Source: a virus. Taken from it: a stretch of 64,000 bases of DNA. Of this stretch, positions 11,070-52,035 are shown piece by piece; position 1 is the first letter of the stretch, and every line of letters begins with the position of its first letter. The notes under the pieces are model-generated. The model was not told the DNA's origin, did no database searches, and saw only the letters and a list, made by a program, of their open reading frames with translations. Location of the stretch: IMG/VR virus record IMGVR_UViG_3300022848_000006; one strand, written 5' to 3'. A program made the position numbers and the translations under genes.

Positions 11070-11134
11070 CTGGGTCTCCTTAGTTGAGGTACAATGTATT
11101 ATACACCAAAAAAGTGGACCCAGTGACAAAAAAG

Positions 11135-11472
11135 TGGAGGTGTTGGGAATTGCACCCAAGTATCCTGCGCAATCCAATTAACCGTCTACACCGATAGCTC
11201 ATTGTATTCGCACAATAAGCAAAGCTAACAACCTTTGGTCGCCGTCAAGCAAGTATGTATGCCATAACTCTAGTTTTAGCATGAGTATGCGATCCCCTAT
11301 TCTGGGGGAGCTAGGCACTTTTGGGCAACAGGGAAAGGCCATCCCCGGCAGCTACGCTGCTAGTGCGAAATTTTCGACAACTAAAAACTTTGGATCGCTT
11401 TTATACTGGCCTCAATCCAACCAGTCGGTGCAAGCTAATCTTCAAAACGCGGAGCGATTCTAATTCACCCCC
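11135..11472 (-). ncRNA. ssrA: tmRNA; predicted tag (A)DPKFLVVENFALAA*
   Basis: Acceptor GGGGGTG/CACCTCC with G3-U70, T-arm TTGGG-TGCAATT-CCCAA, internal frame ending TTC GCA CTA GCA GCG TAG. Confidence 0.88.
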
Positions 11473-15730: not shown

Positions 15731-17362
15731 TTACACCGGGTAGTCTACGCCGCAGGCGAGTCTTTCCCGAATGCCTTCAAGGGTTTCGTCTACAAGTAGC
15801 TTACCATCCTCGAACACTGGAATTAATTCGCCGCCAGCTTCCTCTTCTTTAGTACATTGATCCTTCAAGACGAGTGTCGATCCATGACTTCCTTCAACCC
15901 GATCAACTCGCAATAGTCCACAAGCAGACTTCTTCTTGCCGTCGTCGGTAACTGGGTCTTTGAAAATATTGTGCCCAACGCCGTCAATTTGAGCCCAAGT
16001 AGCCTTACAAGCAATGTAGAACGTGTCACGAGTGTTGTACTGGTAGGTGAAACTACCGACACCAAAGACAACGTTATTGGAAGCATAACCCTTAGCTTCT
16101 AGCTGACTACAAATCGCTTCACAACGCTCAAGTGTGATGCTGTCACCATAAATCAACCCAACCTTGGGGTTCAGTTCTTGGTATTCAGCTTCATTCGTCG
16201 TGGTTCCAAACTTGTCAGCAAGAATCTCGATGGCACCCTTCACTTCGTGAATACTCAACTCGTTGAAGCTAAGGTCAAAGCACTTCCCATCGGTTGTACG
16301 CAAAGCGTCGGTCTCATCATCCAAGCAGGGCAAGAAAGACTGCAACCAGGGCGACGACTTGGACTTGGCCAATAGCTCTTCACTATGGCCATGGAAGTCC
16401 TCTACAAAGTAGCCGCAGATAATCTTGATGGGATTACCAGTGTCGGGTCGGAATACAACCTTGCCGTCTCGTGCTTCAATCTCTTCCTCTAGCGACGGTG
16501 CGATTTCGGTCAACACCTTCCACAAGTCCCACGTATCACTGACGATGGACACAATACCATTGGGATAGGTTTCAGTAATGAGACGCTTAAAGGTTTCTCT
16601 TTCATTAGCCTTTCCTCCTGCACATTGGACTGAGTGTTCCGTCGCCGGAACGCTACAGCTAACAAGTTCATTTTGAAGATCAGCGTTATAGTATTCCTCT
16701 AAAAAGAATTGCCCAGGAACAGTATCACTACCAACAAAAGACAACAAGTGAGCAGCATCGGTGGTTAACGAACTTTCAAAGCTACTCATTCCACGCATTG
16801 AGAAATTATGAGCCTGGAATGCGACATGGTCACGATTGTCACAGGTTGTATCGGCATAACTATTCAATAGCTTGCGATATTGATCCGCAATTGTTGCACA
16901 GGTTAGTGGGTTCCACATAACATTCTGCATGATTGTTTCAATAAAGTTAGTCAGCCAGTAAAAATCTGAGTGAGTATTGATAATTGTACAGTAGGGCACT
17001 CCAATTGGGCATCGAGTCCCCTCAGGTAGGGACTTAATACTCAAAGGCAGATAACCTAGATCATGCAAGTCTTCATATTTTGCCATATCTAGCTTTACAT
17101 CTGGCATATAACGAGCAAAGAAGTTTTCAAGCTCTTGAATAACTTCTCCTTTAGGTCTGTCAAAGAAGTCTTCGTTAAACCTGCGAATCAAATATTCTTT
17201 AATGAAGTACTGTAGGCCAAAAGTTATTACTTTGTCTATATCCTTCATTCTGGATGCTCTAGCAGTGATGTTGGAGTAGACATACTCTGTATTTTTAGGG
17301 TATTGCTCCTTATGAGTGAGCTTATAGCTGTCACTTAGCAAAAGTGGGTTAATTTTCAACAT
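15731..17362 (-). CDS. nadV: Nicotinamide phosphoribosyltransferase-like protein
   Basis: LLLSDSYKLTH, FSMRG, SVPATEHSV, SIVSDTWD, FRPDTG, YGDSIT, FGVGSF. Confidence 0.9.
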   Translation of the reverse strand: MLKINPLLLSDSYKLTHKEQYPKNTEYVYSNITARASRMKDIDKVITFGLQYFIKEYLIRRFNEDFFDRPKGEVIQELENFFARYMPDVKLDMAKYEDLHDLGYLPLSIKSLPEGTRCPIGVPYCTIINTHSDFYWLTNFIETIMQNVMWNPLTCATIADQYRKLLNSYADTTCDNRDHVAFQAHNFSMRGMSSFESSLTTDAAHLLSFVGSDTVPGQFFLEEYYNADLQNELVSCSVPATEHSVQCAGGKANERETFKRLITETYPNGIVSIVSDTWDLWKVLTEIAPSLEEEIEARDGKVVFRPDTGNPIKIICGYFVEDFHGHSEELLAKSKSSPWLQSFLPCLDDETDALRTTDGKCFDLSFNELSIHEVKGAIEILADKFGTTTNEAEYQELNPKVGLIYGDSITLERCEAICSQLEAKGYASNNVVFGVGSFTYQYNTRDTFYIACKATWAQIDGVGHNIFKDPVTDDGKKKSACGLLRVDRVEGSHGSTLVLKDQCTKEEEAGGELIPVFEDGKLLVDETLEGIRERLACGVDYPV

Positions 17363-18356: not shown

Positions 18357-18580
18357 TCCCTTGACTTTGTCCAGTCCTTCCTGTAGAGGGGATCGTTTTG
18401 CCAGTGGTCCCGATAGGGGTCTTTTGGTCTTACTTCATCATTATAGTCCCTTGGGGCCGATTCGTCAACCCCAAAATACCACAAAGGATCAGAATACTTG
18501 AAAATACTTTTCAGCTTTTCGTCTTCCATTGCACCGGGGATTTTATCGATGCAATTCCACATCAACCCGCCATCCTTCAA
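18353..18580 (-). CDS. Hypothetical protein
   Basis: Coding-strand ORF. Confidence 0.4.
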   Translation of the reverse strand: MKDGGLMWNCIDKIPGAMEDEKLKSIFKYSDPLWYFGVDESAPRDYNDEVRPKDPYRDHWQNDPLYRKDWTKSRD

Positions 18581-19496
18581 ATTGAAAGCTAGTAGTAAGG
18601 AACATACTTGGGTGGACTCCGTTTATACCCACCGAATGGCAATCGGTGATAACCTTGTGGTCATCGTCTACAAAGGTAACGTCCTTGTAGTTTAACTTTA
18701 AGTTCGCACAGACGTTTCTTAGCATAATAAACTTGTAACGCTTATTGCCGATAAAGTGTCTGTCTTCTGCCTCCACGAATGGGGCGTTCTTGTTCAACCA
18801 AGACTCTTTGTCTTTCGTACACAGGCTGTCTGGAGACGCCGATAGAACATAAACCCTTGCCCCTTGACTTTCAAGAGATTGAATCTTCTCTAGCACAGGG
18901 ACTACAGGTTTTGCATTTCGGAAGTAACGACCTTCAATGAAGTTGATACATCCGTATTCATCAAATGGAATGTGCTGATAAGCAGCCATCGTTCCATCCA
19001 TGTCCATGAAAATGTGCTTATTCGTATAGTGGGGCACACGAATCATTTCGTCAACCAAGTCTTCGTATCTAATCAGACACTCATTGATCTTGACCGACTT
19101 TCTAATGATCTCAATTTCTGGAACAGGAATGTAGCGGTTACGCTCAGCATTTCTCTCTAAGCAAACGCTAACAGGAGTGTCAATAAAGACAATCTTGACG
19201 TAGTAGCCTAAAGCCTTTAGTTGGCGGATAATACTTTCAGTGTAAGAGCTATTAACTCCACCACCATCCACACAAATCTTTGGAGTATTATTCCTAGCTA
19301 GATCGAGAACATAACGCTCTGCTTCTCTAACACTGTACTCATGGGCTTCGTCCATAGGCACAGTTCCGCAGGGCATCTTGTCCTTGGTTACGTCAGCACT
19401 AACAACAACACAGTTTTGCAAACTGTTTTTGATAAAGTGAGACTTCCCACAACCAGGGATGCCAACCATGATATAGGCTTCTTTAGGCTGATTCAT
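18543..19496 (-). CDS. AAA_33 P-loop kinase fused to HAD 5'(3')-nucleotidase-like domain
   Basis: GIPGCGKS, CLERNAER; DMDGT, LSASP, FVDDD. Confidence 0.75.
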   Translation of the reverse strand: MNQPKEAYIMVGIPGCGKSHFIKNSLQNCVVVSADVTKDKMPCGTVPMDEAHEYSVREAERYVLDLARNNTPKICVDGGGVNSSYTESIIRQLKALGYYVKIVFIDTPVSVCLERNAERNRYIPVPEIEIIRKSVKINECLIRYEDLVDEMIRVPHYTNKHIFMDMDGTMAAYQHIPFDEYGCINFIEGRYFRNAKPVVPVLEKIQSLESQGARVYVLSASPDSLCTKDKESWLNKNAPFVEAEDRHFIGNKRYKFIMLRNVCANLKLNYKDVTFVDDDHKVITDCHSVGINGVHPSMFLTTSFQFEGWRVDVELHR

Positions 19497-20129: not shown

Positions 20130-20441
20130 TTACACCTTTTTCTCGACTGTTATGACAACTTTTGTTACCTTATAGGAACTGTAACCACCATAGTCACCAG
20201 TGCTCCCACTAACTTTGTACTCAATCTTTGGGTTTTCGCCCTCAAGATATCTATTGATCCGAGACGCATCAGTAAGAATGATCTTATTGAAGTCATCTAT
20301 GGACATTTCGGTTCTTTTGGTTACGGTGGTTTTCACTTTATTTTCCTGGTATGGGCAGTTTTGACAACCATAATTACAACACCAACCTCGTTTTAATAGA
20401 AATTCTCTACTTAGCGGCCTTGGTGTGTTCTCTAACGTCAC
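20130..20441 (-). CDS. DUF5522-like Cys-rich protein
   Basis: LSREFLLKRGWCCNYGCQNCPY. Confidence 0.5.
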   Translation of the reverse strand: MTLENTPRPLSREFLLKRGWCCNYGCQNCPYQENKVKTTVTKRTEMSIDDFNKIILTDASRINRYLEGENPKIEYKVSGSTGDYGGYSSYKVTKVVITVEKKV

Positions 20442-21216
20442 TGACTAAGCCCTCTTCGGTGTAAACTTGGTTGATTCCGTCTTCGTGTAAGATCATAACA
20501 CCAAGGTAATGAGAGAAGATCCCGTGAGAGACATAGAGGTTAACCTCTTCTGCGTCTTGGTAATAGAGAATCTTAGAAGCTTCTCTGAAAGTACGACCAC
20601 CGTCGCACAAATCGTCAACGATCAAGACACACTTGTCTGTAACGTCAGCCTCTCCGTGCATTTTCATGCCGGTAATCTCACCAGTAGACTGATTTCGCAC
20701 CTTCTCCATGTAGACAAAGGGCTTGCCAGCAAGTGAAGGGTATCGAGTAGACGCACTAACGTCTGGGAAGCAAATGACTTCTGCATTGCAACCATCGATA
20801 GCCACTTGAATCTCAGCACAAGGCTCGACACAGGTCAGACCATCGCCGAAGTATTGCTCCAACAACTCTTCGCTGTGAGGGTCGAAAACGACTAGCGAAT
20901 CGAATACTGGGGCAATTAAGCCTAAGAAAGTATGTAGGGCGAATGTGGCGTCATTGCTGACTTCTTTGTCCTGGCGAGCATAGGGCAAGTAGGGCAGAGT
21001 CAAGCATACGTCGACTTCAACGTTCAGGCTGCGAATGAGAGTCATCAGTTGCAGCAAGTGAATCAATTCACCTTCATGGTCAAAGTGCCATACAATGTCC
21101 AACCCACTAGTGGAGCTTTCGATCTGCTTGATGAGCGTTAGGGGCAGCTTCCACACTTGACTGGTGTCGTCAGGGAAGATCGTAGGTGTAATTTCTTGGT
21201 CGTTCAGTTTAATCAT
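20407..21216 (-). CDS. prs: Ribose-phosphate pyrophosphokinase-like protein
   Basis: TIFPD, LPYLPYARQDK, DPHS, FPD, LIVDDLCDGGRTF, YVSHGIFS. Confidence 0.88.
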   Translation of the reverse strand: MIKLNDQEITPTIFPDDTSQVWKLPLTLIKQIESSTSGLDIVWHFDHEGELIHLLQLMTLIRSLNVEVDVCLTLPYLPYARQDKEVSNDATFALHTFLGLIAPVFDSLVVFDPHSEELLEQYFGDGLTCVEPCAEIQVAIDGCNAEVICFPDVSASTRYPSLAGKPFVYMEKVRNQSTGEITGMKMHGEADVTDKCVLIVDDLCDGGRTFREASKILYYQDAEEVNLYVSHGIFSHYLGVMILHEDGINQVYTEEGLVSDVREHTKAAK

Positions 21217-22043: not shown

Positions 22044-22343
22044 TTAACTATCATGGCTCCCATTTCGTATTTCATAATGGGCAGTAATGGGATTCTCCCA
22101 CATGAGCGTGTTCACAGCTGGGGCCAGGATCATTGGCTTCCTGTAGTCCCAGCATCTTGCTACATTGGTTAAGACATTGTCGCACAGCCCGTTACTGATT
22201 TTTCCAAGAGTATTAGCAGACAGTGGGGCGATGACAAACACATCAAACTCTTTTCGTAGCTCAATGTGTAATACTTTGCCTTCTTCTTTGTAGTACTGAA
22301 ACTCATCTAAATCTTTTCCTACTAAGCCGTCAGCATACAACAT
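22044..22343 (-). pseudogene. Truncated HFCD flavoprotein (CoaC/PPC decarboxylase-like)
   Basis: FVIAPLSANTLGKISNGLCDNVLT...LAPAVNTLMWENPIT; both ends missing. Confidence 0.7.
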
Positions 22344-22416
22344 CGAAGCGTGGGAGTTGCACCCACATTTCTCCCCCCAATGGAGAGCGTTCTATCTATT
22401 AAAACTACCAAGCCGA
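22343..22416 (-). tRNA. Degenerate tRNA-Gln(TTG)-like
   Basis: D arm, CTCTC-CATTGGG-GGGAG, T-arm GTGGG-TGCAACT-CCCAC; weak acceptor stem. Confidence 0.45.
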
Positions 22417-22421
22417 AACGA

Positions 22422-22555
22422 GTGGAAGCTGGTCTGAGAAACCTCGGCTTAGAGTGTACTCACGCACAGTTCTAGCAAAAGTCATTGACAGAATGAAGAT
22501 CTAATGCTAACTTAGATTGGTCATAGACCCTAAGCAGATTACTCAGACCAGCCTC
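22422..22555 (-). ncRNA. Unclassified multi-branched structured RNA (about 134 nt)
   Basis: 14-bp terminal helix GAGGCTGGTCTGAG/CTCAGACCAGCTTC, inner helix GCTTAGGGT/ACTCTAAGC, four hairpins including a GNRA loop. Confidence 0.65.
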
Positions 22556-22635
22556 TTATGCTCTATTCAAAGCATTTTAAGGTTGGGTTTGCAGATTTCA
22601 TTCTCGTGTATTATAGGCTACGCACCTACAACAAT

Positions 22636-22724
22636 TAGTGAGGTAGAGATTTGCACTCTACAATACGTGATAGTTTAACGACTTCGCAAGCGGTCACATC
22701 CGTCTACCTATTCCGGCACTCACC
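22636..22724 (-). ncRNA. tRNA-like RNA with 23-nt anticodon loop
   Basis: Acceptor GGTGAG/CTCACT, D-loop GGTAGA, stem TGTGA/TCACG, T-arm TAGAG-TGCAAAT-CTCTA. Confidence 0.6.
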
Positions 22725-22781
22725 AACGCTACCAATCACAGGCTGGTAGCCCACCCGCCCCTTAGAGGGCGATCCGATTAT

Positions 22782-24470
22782 CTAAACCGACACTAGGTTT
22801 AGTAGCTCTTGGTCCATCGTTTCGTTGAACAGGTCCATCGCGGTCTCAATCTTGTTGTTCAGAATGAACTGAACGTTGGAAGCTGAGTAACCAGACAAGT
22901 AGAACACGTTCTTCACGTCTCCAAAGGTCTCAAACTTTTGCTTGCTACCAGAACCATAGTATCTGTTGTACAGGTTCCACAAACAAATCTTGAAGTTGTC
23001 ACAGTACTCTGGTGAGAATCCTGCTTGACGCAACTTGTTACGAGCCATTTCAACGTTGGTCTTACCCAGTTGAGCAGGATCAAACTCGCCGTCACTGATA
23101 CAAACAATTCCACCAGGGAAGTCTGACTCAGGAACACCTTGCCCCTTTAGGTTAACGAACAGGTCGATAACCGATTGGAAGTTGGTATTCCCAACACAAC
23201 CAGAGCGATCATTATGCCACTTCTCGGAAGCGGTTTGCCCTTTCCATTCGTGCATCTGTGCTGAGCGGTTAAACTCAATCCAGTTGTCTGCGAATTGTCC
23301 AGACAAAAACTCTGAGAAATACAATGCCATTGCCTTCGCAACGTTAAAGCATGTGAACTTAGATCCGTCAGCCGTATCTCCCATAGATCCCGAAGTATCA
23401 CGAACAACAATCATTCCAGTGGAATTCTCATTCTCGCCCTTCGCCTTGTTAACAGCCTCAACGAACTGCTTGTCAACGGTACTAACGAAGTTAGCATCCC
23501 TGTTGGTGTCTAGCTCACAGAGCAGTTCGTAAATGAACCCTGTGTACTTGACCGAAACAGTTTCCTTGTCATTGATCCACTCGTAGTAAGCGTCAGACAG
23601 GTTTTGGTTCTTCAAGAACTTACTACGAACCAGTAGGTTCAGGGCACGTCCATGAATTGTCTTGAAGTCCAACTCTGCAAACTTTTGTTGAGAGATCAGC
23701 TTTTGCCACTCGTGAGAGGTTCCGCTGTTCTTCAACTTGCGATACTCTCTGTAGGTCTTAGAGCCGCTCTTTGATCCGAAGACCAAGTTACAGATCCACT
23801 TAGCGATGATGTTGCCAGCTTGCTTCTCGACAGTCGTACAAGACGAGTTAGACCTGATTTGGGGCAGGTACTTCTTCATCAAGTTGACAGTGGTCTCATT
23901 CCCTAGCAACTCCACGATCAGAGCACCGAACTTATCCCAGTCCAGCTTACGTCCCTCCCAACCGTGGTACACAAGGTCTTGACGGAGCATCGTGATGATG
24001 TCCTTACAAGAACCAGCAGAAATGAATAGGCCAATGTTTGACCAAAATGCCTCTGGGTCTTTTTGAGACAGCCAGACCATACGCATGATTCCTTCATGAC
24101 GTAGCTCTGCTCCAGATTGTGCCTCTTGAGTTTTGATACCCAAGCCGAACAAATCAGTCTTACGACTAATCATTCTCATGTAGATAGTGAACTTAACGAA
24201 CAGTTCTTTGTCCTTCGCATACAGCTTAGAGCAGTCGCTAGAGATATCATCGAATGAACGTGGAGCCTTATAGGTTCCGAGGTTGCCGAATTGGTCTACG
24301 AAATCAGATCCAGTCGTTTGGAACTTCAAAGCTGCGTTGCCACTGAGAGTCTTTGCAGACTCTTTTTCCAGGCCAAACAAGAACTGATTTTTCTTATTAG
24401 AGCCTTTTTTGACCTTTTTAACACGAACTTCAATTAGTTGGTTTTTCTTTTCCTTAAACATTTCAGTCAT
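22782..24470 (-). CDS. Ro60/TROVE-like helical plus vWA protein (DUF2828 type)
   Basis: TLSGNAALKFQTTGSDFVDQF, KYLP, WQKLISQQ...F..I...AL; vWA VRDTSGSMG, NTNFQSVIDLF, CISDGEFD, LWNL, LSGYS. Confidence 0.75.
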   Translation of the reverse strand: MTEMFKEKKNQLIEVRVKKVKKGSNKKNQFLFGLEKESAKTLSGNAALKFQTTGSDFVDQFGNLGTYKAPRSFDDISSDCSKLYAKDKELFVKFTIYMRMISRKTDLFGLGIKTQEAQSGAELRHEGIMRMVWLSQKDPEAFWSNIGLFISAGSCKDIITMLRQDLVYHGWEGRKLDWDKFGALIVELLGNETTVNLMKKYLPQIRSNSSCTTVEKQAGNIIAKWICNLVFGSKSGSKTYREYRKLKNSGTSHEWQKLISQQKFAELDFKTIHGRALNLLVRSKFLKNQNLSDAYYEWINDKETVSVKYTGFIYELLCELDTNRDANFVSTVDKQFVEAVNKAKGENENSTGMIVVRDTSGSMGDTADGSKFTCFNVAKAMALYFSEFLSGQFADNWIEFNRSAQMHEWKGQTASEKWHNDRSGCVGNTNFQSVIDLFVNLKGQGVPESDFPGGIVCISDGEFDPAQLGKTNVEMARNKLRQAGFSPEYCDNFKICLWNLYNRYYGSGSKQKFETFGDVKNVFYLSGYSASNVQFILNNKIETAMDLFNETMDQELLNLVSV

Positions 24471-24530
24471 TATGAATTTCCCTGTGACAATTTGAACAAA
24501 GTGGAACGCACTTTTTTAATTCTTCTTTAA
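24463..24530 (-). pseudogene. HNH endonuclease C-terminal relic
   Basis: EELKKCVPLCSNCHREIHND*. Confidence 0.65.
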
Positions 24531-24586
24531 GCTTATTAGTACAACTAACTAGCCTAGACGTTAATTTATACTTATTGTCGTGATCC

Positions 24587-24821
24587 AGACTACATTTCAA
24601 CGTTTCAAATTATTAGTTTGATGTTTGAAGTGATTTGCGGTTTATAGTCTTGTTCGAGTTTCGTTTTCGTGCTCTACCATTAAGCTACAAGTGCAAGCAC
24701 TTGATCAGATTCGAACTGATACCACGTCATTAACAATTGAAAATAGATTGCTGAATGAAACTCTATACAGGCCACGTTTAATTCAACCAAAATGAAATTG
24801 TTTGATTTGCAGTATGCGGCC
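24587..24821 (-). ncRNA. Tandem array of three stem-closed RNA units with CNGCAA(A)TC motif (Y-RNA-like candidates)
   Basis: Units 24770-24821, 24656-24763, 24587-24650, each closed by a terminal helix and separated by 5-6 nt; middle unit holds a permuted tRNA module. Confidence 0.72.
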
Positions 24822-24842
24822 TTGTCTCGTTCTCATACTAGT

Positions 24843-24870
24843 ATTATAGCAGAGAACGAGTTTTTGTCAA
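24843..24870 (-). promoter_or_regulatory. Sigma70-type promoter driving the RNA array and TROVE-like gene
   Basis: TTGACA-N16-TATAAT. Confidence 0.8.
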
Positions 24871-30256: not shown

Positions 30257-30260
30257 TAAG

Positions 30261-30334
30261 TACTCAGTGAAAGAATCGAACTTATGATCTTTCCGGTGTA
30301 AACGGAATGTTTTAGCCAACTAAACTAATCGGGC
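30261..30334 (-). tRNA. tRNA-Val(TAC)-like with mismatched T and acceptor stems
   Basis: Good D arm and TTCCG-TTTACAC-CGGAA; 3' strand does not match 5' strand. Confidence 0.55.
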
Positions 30335-30990
30335 TTGTATGATTTAATCCACTTCCTAATAGCGTTATCGCTAACACCGTATTTTCTTCCAGTCCCACAA
30401 TAGCCTAAGTCCTTTATCTCTTTCTCTAAAACTTCAATAGTAGGTCTTTCTACTTTTCTCTTATGTGGTCTCGGGCTGTTCAAATTACAAGTAGAACAAA
30501 CATTTGCAGACTTGGACCTTAGACTGCCACACTTACAGTAATGTTTTTGCCTTTTTCTTTTAGAGGTTGTTTGTTGGCTATGACAATTGGGACATAGAAA
30601 TCTAAGATTTTCTTTTCTGTCATCTTTCCAGTTACCATCAATATGATCTACTTGTAGCGTTATAGGCTTGTTGTTCCAACTTTTAGAGACTCCACATTCT
30701 TCACAACTATGTTCTACGCCAGCCTCTATTAAAGCCCTTACTATTAGATTAGTTTTTCTTCTGATCGTTCTGTTTCCATCAAAAGTCAAAATATCAGAAT
30801 AATGAAGCTTTCCTGTAATTCTTGACTTGAGACGACGCTTGAAGTGAGAAGTGTCTATTTCGTATTTTTCTACATTGTTTTTTAGACAAGTATAAGATGT
30901 CCCCGTCCTCTGTCTACCTAGTTTTGTCAACGTCTCGCCACAGCTTAAACTGTCTTTCACCGCTGCTCTAAGTTCTTTTTCTGTGTACAT
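30325..30990 (-). CDS. HNH homing endonuclease
   Basis: CEECG...WNNKPITLQVDHIDGNWKDDRKENLRFLCPNCHS; C-terminal HTH; stop codon lies within the tRNA 5' end. Confidence 0.9.
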   Translation of the reverse strand: MYTEKELRAAVKDSLSCGETLTKLGRQRTGTSYTCLKNNVEKYEIDTSHFKRRLKSRITGKLHYSDILTFDGNRTIRRKTNLIVRALIEAGVEHSCEECGVSKSWNNKPITLQVDHIDGNWKDDRKENLRFLCPNCHSQQTTSKRKRQKHYCKCGSLRSKSANVCSTCNLNSPRPHKRKVERPTIEVLEKEIKDLGYCGTGRKYGVSDNAIRKWIKSYKPD

Positions 30991-43445: not shown

Positions 43446-44699
43446 TTAAGATTCTTGAGATTCCATATCTATTTCTCCAGAATCTAATTGCTTAGTTTCG
43501 TGAAGATAGAAATTGGGGGACTTTGCTTTTGCGAAATACTCGTTAACTCCATATTTCATCAAAACAACACCCTCATCACAAGGAGCCCCTTCGTCGAGAG
43601 GTAAGCAGTCTTTGAACCCACTCTTAAAGAAGCTTTTGTCCATATAATAATCGACATCTATATCTTCAAACAAACCTCGTTCCATTTCTGGGACATGATT
43701 AATACCGTTCTGTAGACAAAACTCTTTAACCTGATCCCAATGGAGATCTAGCCTCATCCCATCTTGATTGACGGTAGAAATCCTGTAAACATAAAGACGA
43801 TGTTCTCCCTTGGGGATGCAGTAAGAGTAGTTCTTTTGAATGGGTGAGTCTCCCGCCCATCCAACCAACTCCCCATATAGAATCCAATTCTTAGGGATCA
43901 CATGTTTAACTTTTTCCAGAGCTTCATTGTAGATATCCGCCTTGTAGTAAGACTGTGAAGCGTCCCTATATTTAACAACTTTACGAGAGCCAGCTACGCA
44001 CTTATACTCAGACTCTATAATTTGCACTCCACACCATTTTGCGAACCGGGCAAACCAAGGCAAAGACTTTGGTACTAGCACGTTAGCCAACCTAACGCTT
44101 GATCCGTGTAGCTTAGCTGAGACAAAACAGTAGTCGTCAGGCTTCCAAGCTTGTAGGTTCCTTAGAAGCTGTGGTGTCTCATGGTGTTCAGGCAAAAGTT
44201 TTGGATCTACTTTCTGAACTTTAGCTTGACCCTTAGTCTTGTTTGAATCACCCTTGGGACTAAGAACCTGTTTGATATACTTAGAAACAACCAAGTTTCC
44301 ATTAATATGGGTGAAAGAGTCTCCGACCTTGAGGTCATTAACGTTCACATCCAAGTATGAAAGGCATGATAAAGGAAGGAAAAGGGCGTTAGACACATGG
44401 CCGCGAAGCTTAATAGCTCGAACTCTAGCGTTGTCTCCAAGATAACCCTTAGCCTCTTTGTTGCGGTTCAACTCAGAGTGTGCATGAAGGTCGTTGTATG
44501 CAGCAAGGTCGAGGGCAAGCTGGCACTCAGTAGGAAACAAAATCCCTACATCGCCAACTTCATAAGTACCTCGCGACACCACTGCCTGCATACCAAAGTG
44601 AGAGATACCCACCAATCGATCTGCATTCTCAAGGTCGAGAAGGTTTCCAATTTTAACTACTACTGCTGAGTAGTTCTCGTTATCGTTTGTAAGTTTCAT
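43446..44699 (-). CDS. ATP-dependent RNA ligase (DRB0094/Rnl5-like, N-terminal OB domain)
   Basis: LENADRL, RVRAIKLRG, motif I SAKLHGSS, YGEL, EGVV, AKAKSPNF. Confidence 0.8.
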   Translation of the reverse strand: MKLTNDNENYSAVVVKIGNLLDLENADRLVGISHFGMQAVVSRGTYEVGDVGILFPTECQLALDLAAYNDLHAHSELNRNKEAKGYLGDNARVRAIKLRGHVSNALFLPLSCLSYLDVNVNDLKVGDSFTHINGNLVVSKYIKQVLSPKGDSNKTKGQAKVQKVDPKLLPEHHETPQLLRNLQAWKPDDYCFVSAKLHGSSVRLANVLVPKSLPWFARFAKWCGVQIIESEYKCVAGSRKVVKYRDASQSYYKADIYNEALEKVKHVIPKNWILYGELVGWAGDSPIQKNYSYCIPKGEHRLYVYRISTVNQDGMRLDLHWDQVKEFCLQNGINHVPEMERGLFEDIDVDYYMDKSFFKSGFKDCLPLDEGAPCDEGVVLMKYGVNEYFAKAKSPNFYLHETKQLDSGEIDMESQES

Positions 44700-45266: not shown

Positions 45267-45541
45267 TGCTTTTTACTCCATCGTTTTTTGTCTGCGGTTG
45301 ACGGTCCCTCTTCATAGCCAGTTTCATAACCCTTGACATAGATAGGGTCGATCTCTTGAAAGCTAATCTCTTGGATCTCGTCGTTGCGAGGTCTCTCTTT
45401 CGGGTCTGTCAACCAATCGATATCAGAGTCAAGATCTGCCCAGTTGTCAAACCGACCAGACTCTCTACCATGCTTAAAGCGACGGTTGTTTTCCATTTCT
45501 CCCATGTCTTCTGCTACTTCTGCACCCATGTTATTCTCCAA
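45263..45541 (-). CDS. Hypothetical protein
   Basis: Coupled ORF. Confidence 0.45.
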   Translation of the reverse strand: MENNMGAEVAEDMGEMENNRRFKHGRESGRFDNWADLDSDIDWLTDPKERPRNDEIQEISFQEIDPIYVKGYETGYEEGPSTADKKRWSKKQ

Positions 45542-46013
45542 TCATTTCAACTCTAAGGTCGGTTAACAAAAAGCCTAACCAATTCAGGCCCTTCCACTTG
45601 TTCATGTCCGTAATGTCTGGATCATCACCAGACATACCAACGCCCCAAATTTTATCATAGGGGCTAGCTTCTACTAACACTCTACCGGCGGTGCCTTCTA
45701 GCTCTAGTTTAAGCAGAACACTTTGGGCAAACTTTGCCTTTAGTCCAGCCTTAACAATTCCCCTCGCTACGCAGGCCCAGTCTGTCTCATCAAAGTTTTC
45801 AATAGACCTGCCCAACGCTTTCTGTTCTTTTGGATCTTTAACATCCATGACCTTTCTAGCTGTAGCTCTGTCCTTAAAAAACAAAGCCTTTTGAACCATC
45901 ATAAACTGCTCAACACAGTTAAACTCAATCAGTCTATCATCTAAAGTTGGAGCCGTAAATAAACAGCGATGCCAATTGCTAAACGGCCCGCCCCAAAATG
46001 GTAATACCTTCAT
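45531..46013 (-). CDS. NADAR (YbiA-like) protein
   Basis: FSNW, EQFMMVQKA, QKALGR, KFAQ, VEASPYDKIWGVG, GLNWLG. Confidence 0.9.
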   Translation of the reverse strand: MKVLPFWGGPFSNWHRCLFTAPTLDDRLIEFNCVEQFMMVQKALFFKDRATARKVMDVKDPKEQKALGRSIENFDETDWACVARGIVKAGLKAKFAQSVLLKLELEGTAGRVLVEASPYDKIWGVGMSGDDPDITDMNKWKGLNWLGFLLTDLRVEMIGE

Positions 46014-46519: not shown

Positions 46520-47860
46520 TTATACAAGTGCCAAACCGTCTTCAAGTGTATGAAACTCACCATCAAGCTGTGCTTGATAGCATCGATCAAGAATATCCTT
46601 GAACTTAGGTCCAGGCTCCATTTCCATAGCAACCAAGTGTCTACCCTTAACGATAGGATCAGGCTTACCAGTCATTAGGTCTAAACCCTCTGACAGTTCT
46701 TGGATCTTAGCAGCCGTAGCAGGAACGCCCTTAGGCAAAGGATGTCGACCACTGTGATCGGCCTCTATCAACCTAACAAGCATAGCGATGTTCGATGGTG
46801 CAACACGCACAGCCAATCGTCGCACAAGCCTGTTGTTAGGCTCAACTCCGATATGAGACATGTGCTCCACAACCAAAGGAACAACCTTCTTGACTACAGA
46901 CTCGCCGAAGCCCATTCTTGCAAGCAAGCTTCTCGTAAGGTCAGCACCCTCTTCTGCATGGCCAGGAGATCTCCATCTCTCATCACGCATGACCGTAGTA
47001 TTAGCTTTACCTAAGTCGTGGCACAATGCCGCTAGCATCAATACCAAACGATCATCGTCGTTAAGCTTATCACGTACTGCAATATCTCTAGCTGCATCGC
47101 AGACTAGGGAGGTATGGGTGAGACAGTCGCCCTCGGGATGCCATTCAGCGTCTTGTGGTAAGCCAACGAGTGCATGAAGCTCTGGAAACAGTTCTATCCA
47201 CTTAGTATCACGCAAGAAGTACAGTCCAGCACTAGGCTTGACAGACTTCAACGCCCACTTCAACACTTCTCCGTAGATACGCTCAGTAGAGATAGTATGA
47301 GCTTCTGACAACAAACTCTTACACATCAGAGAGGTACTAGGATCGACAGTAAGGTTAAACCTAGAAGCAAATTGAAACCCTCTAAGAGTTCTAAGAGGAT
47401 CTTGGGCAAATTTGTCACTAGTCGCCCTCAGAACTCTATTTTTAAGATCCTCAACTCCACCAAACGGATCAAACAAGTTTCCATCACAATCTTTAGAGAT
47501 ACTATTGATAGTAAAATCTCTACGACTCGCAGCTTCTGTTATGGTCATATTGTGATCCACCTCTACTGTAAAGCCTTGGTGACCATCGGCCACCTTACTG
47601 TCACGTCTCGGTAAAGTAAAGTCGAAGTCGTCATCTGGAGTAGTCAATTTGATTACACCAAACGACACTCCAACGCAATCGACCTTACCAAAAGGTTTAA
47701 GGACAGTGATAAGCTCGTCAGCGGACAGGCCGTACACTTCAACGTCAATGTCTTTGCTGTTTTTAATACCCAGGATTTCATCCCTCACACAGCCACCAAC
47801 GAACAAAGGGCGACCACCAACCCTAGTAACCGCGTCTAATATCTCTTGCATGTGCGTCAT
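46520..47860 (-). CDS. cca: CCA-adding tRNA nucleotidyltransferase with HD domain
   Basis: VGGCVRD, DIDVEV, RRDFTIN, DPLRTLR, ERIYGE, HPEGD, ALCHDLGK. Confidence 0.92.
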   Translation of the reverse strand: MTHMQEILDAVTRVGGRPLFVGGCVRDEILGIKNSKDIDVEVYGLSADELITVLKPFGKVDCVGVSFGVIKLTTPDDDFDFTLPRRDSKVADGHQGFTVEVDHNMTITEAASRRDFTINSISKDCDGNLFDPFGGVEDLKNRVLRATSDKFAQDPLRTLRGFQFASRFNLTVDPSTSLMCKSLLSEAHTISTERIYGEVLKWALKSVKPSAGLYFLRDTKWIELFPELHALVGLPQDAEWHPEGDCLTHTSLVCDAARDIAVRDKLNDDDRLVLMLAALCHDLGKANTTVMRDERWRSPGHAEEGADLTRSLLARMGFGESVVKKVVPLVVEHMSHIGVEPNNRLVRRLAVRVAPSNIAMLVRLIEADHSGRHPLPKGVPATAAKIQELSEGLDLMTGKPDPIVKGRHLVAMEMEPGPKFKDILDRCYQAQLDGEFHTLEDGLALV

Positions 47861-51036: not shown

Positions 51037-52035
51037 TTATTTAGGAGCATGAATGACGGGCAAACCATTGCCACAAGAAGGTCTGGCTTTATTTGGATTC
51101 TCTGTAAACCACTCTTGGACGTAATGAAGCTGGCCACATCCACCCCCGATATCATCTTGTCCAGCGGGGTCAAATACTCGCACATTATAACCCTTGGCTA
51201 ACATTTTGCCACTAAAGTCTACAGCTAAATCTCTTTGTCCATCACTTCTAGACGGAAGGCCCTCGTTACGCTCACAGATCACGCTAATCGTGCATTCCCA
51301 CACGTCGGGAGTGAACAGGACAGCAAGACGATCAGCATCTTCGTGAGTGCTATTATCCTCACCAGCACAGTAGTTAAAGAACGGCTTACGACCAGTGGCA
51401 TTGTACCACTTAGTTCCAAGCTCTGCAATCTCTTCAAGAGTCAACTTGGACTTGAATGGAATCAGTTTGTCACGATCTTCGTCTGTACTCTTGTGGACAG
51501 AGAACTGTAGTCCCACGTTCTCAAGGTCTATCGAAGCCTTGAAAAATTGATCCCAGTTAACGTCTGGTCCAATCGTACTCAATAGCAACTTGGCCGTTGG
51601 GTACATATTGTTCAGAATATAGAGGGCACTCACCATGTTCTTTTGGTTAAGCATAGGCTCGCCCATACTCATGAACATAATCTGCAATCGGTCCATTTCT
51701 TTAGATTCGACGCCGGTCTCATCCATACAGTGGACAACCTGTGCTACAATCTCATCCGCACTCAAACTACGGACAAAGTAATCCCCAGCACCACAGAAAC
51801 GACAACCAACAGGACAACCTGACTGACTAGAGCAGCAGATGACTGTGCGATCCTCGTAAGTAGGGTACTTATAGAGAACAGCCTCAGCTACGGCGTTGTC
51901 TTTCTTAAAGACATACTTAGCGACATTGCCCTCTGCACTGTCAATACGTTTAGTTTCATTCCACATCTTGTTTCTCTCTAATTGTAATGTCATAAATATA
52001 TCTACCGACATGAAACGGCAACAAAACCGGCTCAT
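51037..52035 (-). CDS. rlmN: RlmN/Cfr-family radical SAM RNA methyltransferase
   Basis: CCSSQSGCPVGCRFC, FMSMGEP, LSTIG, FSVH, DIGGGCGQL. Confidence 0.82.
   Translation of the reverse strand: MSRFCCRFMSVDIFMTLQLERNKMWNETKRIDSAEGNVAKYVFKKDNAVAEAVLYKYPTYEDRTVICCSSQSGCPVGCRFCGAGDYFVRSLSADEIVAQVVHCMDETGVESKEMDRLQIMFMSMGEPMLNQKNMVSALYILNNMYPTAKLLLSTIGPDVNWDQFFKASIDLENVGLQFSVHKSTDEDRDKLIPFKSKLTLEEIAELGTKWYNATGRKPFFNYCAGEDNSTHEDADRLAVLFTPDVWECTISVICERNEGLPSRSDGQRDLAVDFSGKMLAKGYNVRVFDPAGQDDIGGGCGQLHYVQEWFTENPNKARPSCGNGLPVIHAPK

What the first reader, a model, noticed from the sequence alone, without database searches (positions are those of the whole stretch)
22422..24870. Ro60/TROVE-like vWA protein co-transcribed with a tandem array of CNGCAA-motif RNAs: candidate phage Ro-Y-like RNP system
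Seen: a consensus promoter (24843-24870) is followed by three abutting units, each closed by a terminal helix: GGCCGC/GTGGCC (24770-24821), GAGTTTC/GAAACTC (24656-24763), AGACTATA/TGTAGTCT (24587-24650). Each carries the same unpaired motif just 3' of the 5' strand (CTGCAAATC, CAGCAATC, CCGCAAATC) followed by an A/U-rich stretch. The 562-aa helical plus vWA (DTSGSM) gene follows, and a fourth motif copy (CTGCAAACC, about 22586-22594) follows a second -10 box downstream. Known: bacterial and phage Ro60 (Rsr/TROVE) genes are flanked by Y RNAs, which have a terminal Ro-binding helix and a variable effector loop. Inference: this DUF2828-type protein binds its own class of Y-like RNAs whose recognition motif differs from the GNCGAAN0-1G of known bacterial Y RNAs, with interchangeable loops as cargo or decoys, possibly linked to tRNA repair or anti-defence.
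Basis: partly seen in the sequence, partly recalled or inferred. Interest (0 to 1): 0.92.

Follow-up and report, generated by a model that had tools for sequence, protein, structure and literature searches.

The report
Phage Ro60-like ring with tRNA-mimic RNAs
A large phage appears to transcribe, from one consensus promoter, a row of small RNAs that share one conserved 'handle' and carry tRNA look-alike parts, followed by a ring-shaped relative of the RNA-binding protein Ro60; the pairing recurs in many unrelated viruses, I found it in no RNA catalogue or paper searched, and the handle resembles the unexplained Class I RNAs of social amoebae.

Summary
Confirmed and extended. The 562-aa DUF2828/DUF7788 protein folds like Ro60 (Z 23.5 over 413 residues; intact MIDAS) but misses the TROVE HMM. 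Three upstream RNA units share a handle: a 7-bp closing stem starting 10 nt before an unpaired CNGCAA. Beside 106 non-redundant homologous genes, stem plus CAGCAA occurs 278 times sense, 7 antisense, 7 shuffled; GNCGAA is not enriched; the stems covary. Whole-genome, 7/8 phages with the gene carry the RNAs (one 200 kb away), 0/8 without it. Corrections: the second -10 box is not supported; copy 4 competes with a stronger fold; an HNH remnant separates array and gene. Best reading: a Ro60-like particle carrying tRNA mimics, probably against tRNA-attacking defences. Binding and expression are untested. This scan already noted the system in over 230 other genomes.

The parts
24843..24870 (-). sigma70-type promoter with extended -10
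   Evidence: 12/12 consensus; conserved in L090 and L093
24769..24822 (-). RNA unit 1 (54 nt): 7-bp closing stem, CUGCAA motif; cargo can form a Gln(UUG)-like anticodon stem-loop at 24782-24796 (4 bp; an alternative hairpin competes)
   Evidence: model 37.1 bits; weak Rfam Dicty Class I hit, 20.9 bits, E 1.2
24656..24763 (-). RNA unit 2 (108 nt): 7-bp closing stem, CAGCAA motif, YrlA-type tRNA-like cargo
   Evidence: model 24.7 bits
24671..24720 (-). circularly permuted tRNA elbow inside unit 2: T arm 24720-24704, loop-closed 6-bp acceptor stem 24703-24688, D arm 24685-24671
   Evidence: Rfam YrlA 34.6 bits, E 3.8e-5, below the gathering score of 69; only the tRNA-like part aligns well
24587..24650 (-). 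RNA unit 3 (64 nt): 8-bp closing stem, CCGCAA motif; 5-bp anticodon stem-loop mimic at 24605-24621 (loop CU-AAU-AA; related cargo elsewhere shows UUU or UGU)
   Evidence: model 29.0 bits
24466..24609 (-). C-terminal remnant of an HNH endonuclease gene between array and gene; absent in L090
   Evidence: tblastn 56% to annotated phage HNH genes, E 5e-6
22782..24470 (-). DUF2828/DUF7788 Ro60-like protein, 562 aa: helical ring plus vWA with MIDAS D358/S360/S362/T429/D460; likely start at 24461
22636..22724 (-). tRNA-like gene with abnormal anticodon arm directly after the protein gene
   Evidence: acceptor, D and T arms visible; not called by ARAGORN or Rfam
22490..22604 (-). possible RNA unit 4 (115 nt): 8-bp stem and CUGCAA motif; atypical, overlaps the next element
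   Evidence: in-register scan; kept in L090 with CAGCAA; missed by the model; competing fold
22422..22555 (-). multibranched RNA closed by a long helix (22552-22542 with 22438-22428), incompatible with or crossing the unit 4 stem
   Evidence: helix probability about 1 in window and L090 with compensatory changes; no Rfam match

Best explanation
A Ro60-like ribonucleoprotein system of a branch with its own RNA family. One promoter makes a precursor that is cut between stems into 54-108-nt RNAs (inferred from the conserved 4-5-nt linker). Each RNA has a constant handle (closing stem, fixed 10-nt register, unpaired C[A/U/C]GCAA) which the DUF2828 ring binds in place of the GNCGAA helix bound by true Ro60 (inferred), and a variable cargo that mimics part of a tRNA: an elbow (unit 2) or an anticodon loop (units 1, 3) (structure shown by comparison). 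The ring protects the RNA ends and presents the mimics to tRNA-recognising proteins. The most likely purpose in this phage is to keep translation going when the host attacks tRNAs: decoys for, or tethers to, anticodon nucleases and repair enzymes (inferred; about 50% given the RNP). In many relatives a handle over the gene's own start codon lets spare protein shut off its own synthesis (inferred); this genome lacks that operator. The confidence given is for the RNP with tRNA-mimic cargo.
For: Fold: AlphaFold pLDDT 88.8; the top 11 Foldseek hits are all Ro60; VIA-align Z 23.5, 413 aligned, rmsd 4.1 to 1yvp, next unrelated Z 9.5; profile match to phage TROVE proteins 96%, E 2.7e-9 over 353 columns. 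RNA: 278 sense vs 7 antisense vs 7 shuffled; register of 10 nt in 254/329; without selecting on pairing, 102/202 neighbouring units form all 7 pairs vs 3.0 shuffled, and pair with their own 3' strand, not a neighbour's (0.68 vs 0.34); 125 double-sided changes. Linkage: motif-first search, 20/26 stem-bearing hits have the gene in the locus vs 11/91 without stem; whole genomes 7/8 vs 0/8, including two phages with canonical Ro60; RNAs 200 kb from the gene in Serratia phage BF. Cargo: 77/93 long units have a T-loop; anticodon-loop mimics 100/304 vs 19, no stop anticodons, A34 depleted, UUU commonest. Start-codon handle: 36/39 genes with AAG before ATG fold a stem of 6 bp or more vs 2/44 others; 20 keep the whole motif. 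Context: RNA ligase, CCA-type enzyme, kinase-phosphatase, tRNAs, tmRNA in the genome.
Against: No expression or binding data. Homologues are related (33-87% identity), so counts are not independent events. In the unprocessed transcript the stems of units 2 and 3 have low predicted probability (about 0.1). This genome's motifs are mostly rare variants (family: 226 CAG, 23 CUG, 5 CCG), unit 3's loop no longer reads as a common bacterial anticodon, and an HNH scar intervenes, so parts may be decaying. One phage with the gene (Synechococcus B3) gave no model hit. Nothing here separates decoy from tether or repair roles.
Confidence: 0.82

Rival explanations
1. RYPER-like tether: same RNP, but the cargo recruits a host nuclease such as PNPase, to redirect or dampen RNA decay, as reported for phiRo60 with Yrl1/2.
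For: Ro60 fold and YrlA-type elbow in unit 2; phage precedent in PMC12135203. Compatible with the best explanation as an alternative purpose.
Against: Does not explain why short units display varied, real anticodon loops.
Confidence: 0.25
2. The handles are cis-acting signals (processing sites or protein-bound operators) in phage transcripts, not free RNAs.
For: Handles cover the gene's start codon in 36/83 relatives and lie between tRNA genes in Felixounavirus; linkers are conserved.
Against: Tandem arrays of up to 9 units with tRNA-mimic cargo inside the stem make little sense as mere signals; most lie downstream of the gene.
Confidence: 0.1
3. The RNAs work without this protein (for example free tRNA decoys bound by a host factor) and merely share tRNA islands with the gene.
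For: Both sit in tRNA-rich regions.
Against: tRNA-bearing phages without the gene (T4, T5, Bxz1, CcrColossus) have no handles; the handle is written into the protein's own start codon region.
Confidence: 0.06
4. Chance or decayed tRNA and repeat debris.
For: Degenerate tRNAs and an HNH scar flank the locus.
Against: 40-fold strand enrichment, fixed register and covariation.
Confidence: 0.02

Closest known systems
Bacterial and phage Ro60 (Rsr, TROVE + vWA) with YrlA/YrlB Y RNAs (Chen et al. 2014, PMC4201824; Rfam RF02553)
   Same: Ring fold with MIDAS vWA; several small RNA genes beside the protein gene; terminal helix plus variable effector part; T arm, loop-closed acceptor stem and D arm in permuted order (unit 2).
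   Different: Protein is DUF2828/DUF7788, about 11-15% identical, no TROVE HMM hit; RNA motif is unpaired CAGCAA after a short fully paired stem, not GNCGAA in a long bulged helix; most units are short and carry anticodon-loop mimics; a handle over the start codon was seen in relatives.
phiRo60 with Yrl1/Yrl2 of Thermus phage phiLo (PMC12135203; PDB 9kop, 9l5y)
   Same: Phage Ro60-fold protein with RNAs upstream; best Foldseek hit.
   Different: Its RNAs were defined by a CGAA motif; 15% identity; the paper does not mention DUF2828.
Dictyostelium Class I RNAs (Rfam RF01414; Kjellin et al. 2021, PMC7919456)
   Same: About 60 nt; short stem joining the ends with free sequence; AAG start and CUG end; unpaired motif ending in CAGCAA next to the 5' strand; variable interior; gene clusters. 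The Rfam model hits phage units at up to 39.3 bits (gathering 41.5).
   Different: Reported as unique to dictyostelids; individual genes with an upstream DUSE element; stem starts about 11 rather than 10 nt before the motif; known direct binder is the RRM protein Rnp1A; no DUF2828 partner reported.
ROT/TROVE proteins in jumbo-phage RNA repair (Iyer et al. 2021, PMC7824862)
   Same: [quoted passage not shown]
   Different: The passages read give no phage RNA family or motif; whether DUF2828 proteins are included is not stated there.

Membership tests
Ro60/TROVE | Helical toroid closed by a vWA domain | tested here: met
   Z 23.5, 413 residues to 1yvp; top 11 Foldseek hits Ro60
Ro60/TROVE | MIDAS motif DxSxS...T...D | tested here: met
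   D358, S360, S362, T429, D460 invariant
Ro60/TROVE | TROVE domain PF05731 above cut-off | tested here: not met
   No hit in the protein or the genome while controls rang; remote homology only by profile comparison
Ro60/TROVE | Y-RNA-binding helix ending in the conserved Ser-His (role from my own knowledge) | tested here: inconclusive
   In the profile alignment the Lys-Tyr is kept but the Arg-Asp...Ser-His stretch is not; low-confidence columns
Ro60/TROVE | Binds the neighbouring small RNAs | not testable with these tools
   Only linkage and the start-codon handle speak to it
YrlA Y RNA (RF02553) | Permuted T arm, closed acceptor stem, D arm | tested here: met
   Unit 2, E 3.8e-5; 33/304 family units
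YrlA Y RNA (RF02553) | GNCGAA Ro-binding motif | tested here: not met
   Absent from the handles; not enriched beside homologues: 17 sense, 18 antisense, 33 shuffled
YrlA Y RNA (RF02553) | Rfam gathering score 69 | tested here: not met
   34.6 bits
Dictyostelium Class I RNA (RF01414) | Short terminal stem with free sequence plus adjacent unpaired motif ending CAGCAA | tested here: met
Dictyostelium Class I RNA (RF01414) | Rfam gathering score 41.5 | tested here: not met
   20.9 bits in the window, 39.3 at best in a cyanophage
Dictyostelium Class I RNA (RF01414) | Dictyostelids encode a DUF2828 protein that binds them | not tested
   No dictyostelid sequence could be reached; DDB_G0281243, pulled down with DdR-21, is unannotated in the text read
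DUF2828/DUF7788 family | PF25043 above cut-off and full-length homology | tested here: met
   46.2 bits vs 27.1; phrog_850, E 6e-30; Atlas clusters at 0.99. PF11443 itself is not hit in this divergent subfamily member.

The most novel reading that the evidence does not exclude
DUF2828 proteins are a second, widespread Ro60 lineage whose RNAs form a modular tRNA-decoy toolkit (anticodon loops, elbows) that phages use against tRNA-cutting defences, self-balanced by a handle over the start codon; and the same handle family includes the Class I RNAs of social amoebae, which would then be the Y-RNA equivalents of a eukaryotic DUF2828 protein.
Probability: 0.3. Interest if true: 0.93.

Novelty: new variant of a known kind. 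Interest (0 to 1): 0.82.

Why it matters
It gives a large family of unknown function (443 GenBank phage records including Felixounavirus, Listeria, Staphylococcus and Campylobacter phages; also giant viruses and bacterial genomes) a specific RNA partner and a testable job. It adds an uncatalogued RNA family with a second solution for Ro-ring recognition. It proposes tRNA-fragment mimics as phage counter-defence, testable in E. coli with Felixounaviruses. It also offers a concrete lead on the long-open question of what Dictyostelium Class I RNAs bind and where they came from.

Tried and rejected
Sequence search of solved structures found no Ro60 hit for the protein or the close alignment: the link needs fold or profile comparison. 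Second promoter at 22615: rejected. RtcB and T4 Rnl1 not found in the genome (the Rnl1 control did not ring). Sequencing runs: no RNA holder listed, no evidence either way. Motif search in bacterial genomes returned chance matches (119/120 without stem); a family search found 3/301 genomes, two (near-identical) with handles beside the gene. No further homologue of unit 4's cargo or the 134-nt element beyond L090. T5's stable RNAs of unknown function were inspected and have no handle. A dictyostelid DUF2828 protein could not be reached. Avesson 2011 and Burroughs and Aravind 2016 are not held; the latter may already link DUF2828 to TROVE. The comparison used a wrong-strand ORF and was redone. 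Nine literature searches found no paper tying DUF2828 to RNAs; most subscription papers are not covered.

Full report
Setting. The window lies in a 175,823-nt virus record rated complete, rich in tRNAs and with a tmRNA. The host is not known. All parts are on the minus strand.

Observation. The promoter is a perfect extended consensus. Units 1-3 and the 562-aa ORF are as described, with a seventh pair in unit 1. Predicted folding of single units is only modestly better than shuffles (z -2.4, -0.1, -1.9), so the case rests on comparison. A covariance model built from 59 units of other phages finds only these three units in the whole window. The second -10 box has no -35 and is not conserved. 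The fourth motif has an 8-bp in-register stem kept in relative L090, but it overlaps a 134-nt multibranched element whose long closing helix covaries between the two genomes and is predicted to win by 10.6 kcal/mol. It may be a switch, a pseudoknot or a relic; I put it at about 60% real. The 117 nt before the gene are the tail of a lost HNH gene.

Protein. It carries DUF7788 and matches phrog_850, not TROVE. The model is confident (pLDDT 88.8). Foldseek's first 11 hits are Ro60 structures and VIA-align gives Z 23.5 over 413 residues, far above plain vWA domains at 9.5. A broad profile matches two phage Ro60 proteins at 96% over 353 columns that include the helical part; MIDAS residues are invariant, while the Ro60 stretch that I recall binding Y RNA is only partly kept. 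Databases already label some members 'RNA-binding protein' or 'TROVE domain', so the protein link alone is not new.

RNA family. In 106 non-redundant loci, CAGCAA with a closing stem of 7 bp or more occurs 278 times on the gene's strand, 7 on the other and 7 in shuffles; GNCGAA shows no enrichment. The stem starts 10 nt before the motif, follows an A (97%) and is followed by G (97%); 80 loci have in-register copies, up to 9 each. To avoid selecting on pairing I defined units by neighbouring motifs only: 102 of 202 form all seven pairs at one fixed offset against 3.0 in shuffles, mutual information lies on the diagonal, and the linker is GATA in 75. The window uses rarer motif variants (CUG, CCG), which the family tolerates (28 of 254). 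Handles also flank the gene in Listeria, Campylobacter, Felixounavirus and cyanophage genomes, giant viruses and two bacterial genomes.

Linkage. Searching from the RNA side, 20 of 26 stem-bearing hits had the gene in the fetched locus against 11 of 91 without a full stem. Over whole genomes, 7 of 8 phages with DUF7788 carry handles, in Serratia phage BF 200 kb from the gene, and 0 of 8 without it, among them two with canonical Ro60. The sample is small and hand-picked.

Cargo. Unit 2 holds T arm, loop-closed acceptor stem and D arm in YrlA order; its acceptor stem is 6 bp, short of the 7 bp that Chen et al. tie to RNase P cleavage. Across the family 77 of 93 long units have a T-loop and 33 of 304 the full permuted elbow. 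Anticodon stem-loop mimics occur in 100 of 304 units against 19 in shuffles, mostly 15-24 nt into the cargo; with 5 bp or more none shows a stop anticodon, A34 is depleted (13% vs 36%) and UUU is commonest. Lys(UUU), Thr(UGU) and Asn(GUU), all displayed, are the reported targets of the PARIS nuclease AriB (PMC12409363); this fit is suggestive only. In L090 the promoter and three units are kept but the short and elbow units are in swapped order, as expected of modules.

Start-codon handle. In 39 of 83 relatives AAG precedes the ATG; 36 of them fold a stem of 6 bp or more whose 5' strand contains the start codon and whose 3' strand lies in the coding region, and 20 keep the whole motif, read as Met-Phe-Asn/Asp-Ser-Lys. 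Only 2 of the other 44 do. This is the best genetic hint that the protein itself binds the handle. The genes are related, so it may trace to few origins. The window's gene lacks it.

Class I RNA. Rfam's Dictyostelium model hits unit 1 weakly and handles of other phages up to 39.3 bits. The published description (short free stem, AAG start, CUG end, motif with invariant C, C, A, A, about 60 nt) fits, and the authors found none outside dictyostelids without reporting a search of phages. I could not test whether dictyostelids have the protein. Homology is plausible, not shown.

Mechanism. Shown: fold, RNA family, covariation, linkage, tRNA-like cargo. Inferred: processing at the linkers, binding through the handle, protection and display of cargo, feedback at the start codon. 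Purpose: most likely support of translation under tRNA attack, in a genome that also has an RNA ligase, a CCA-type enzyme and a kinase-phosphatase; a PNPase tether as in phiLo is the main rival.

Novelty. It works like Ro60 with Y RNA but fails membership on TROVE, GNCGAA and Rfam scores, so it is a new variant with an uncatalogued RNA family. I found no paper describing it. The scan's own notes report the same system in at least 232 other genomes; I had reached the Ro60, YrlA and Class I readings before opening them, and they are not counted as support.

Noticed in passing
L005:4003-4061, L030:4000-4062, L048:4000-4059 and others: Handle stem-loop covering the DUF2828 start codon in 36 of 83 related genes; probable translational feedback operator.
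   Followed up: yes
window 22422-22555 (-); L090 about 2280-2415: 134-nt multibranched RNA with a covarying long helix and four hairpins, loosely cloverleaf-like (one loop reads UAG); no Rfam match; competes with handle copy 4.
   Followed up: partly
window 22343-22414 (-): Degenerate tRNA (UUG-like loop); the matching place in L090 holds a more intact tRNA.
   Followed up: no
window 22044-22343 (-): Truncated flavoprotein (CoaBC-like) fragment, Pfam 62.5 bits over 68 residues.
   Followed up: no
window 15731-17362 and 20407-21216 (-): ORFs that look like a nicotinamide phosphoribosyltransferase and a PRPP-synthetase-like enzyme (by eye, not scanned), with a NADAR gene at 45531-46013: possible NAD+ rebuilding counter-defence.
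   Followed up: no
window 18543-19496, 43446-44699, 46520-47860, 51037-52035 (-): Kinase-phosphatase, RNA ligase with OB fold, CCA/poly(A) polymerase with HD domain and a radical SAM enzyme: a dispersed tRNA repair and maturation kit.
   Followed up: partly
window 11132-11472 (-): Phage tmRNA gene.
   Followed up: no
window 30260-30334 and 30325-30990 (-): HNH endonuclease gene abutting tRNA-Val; HNH insertions recur in this tRNA region.
   Followed up: no
L009:1463-2014: ROOL-like RNA (90 bits, below gathering 99.1) 1 kb upstream of the DUF2828 gene in Listeria phage LP-048, with RtcB downstream.
   Followed up: no
L010:5604-5720: Handle RNA in a Felixounavirus enclosing a whole permuted tRNA: anticodon arm, T arm, closed acceptor stem, D arm.
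   Followed up: partly
L415:285-645: Phage T5 carries three annotated stable RNAs of unknown function in its tRNA cluster; they have no handle.
   Followed up: partly
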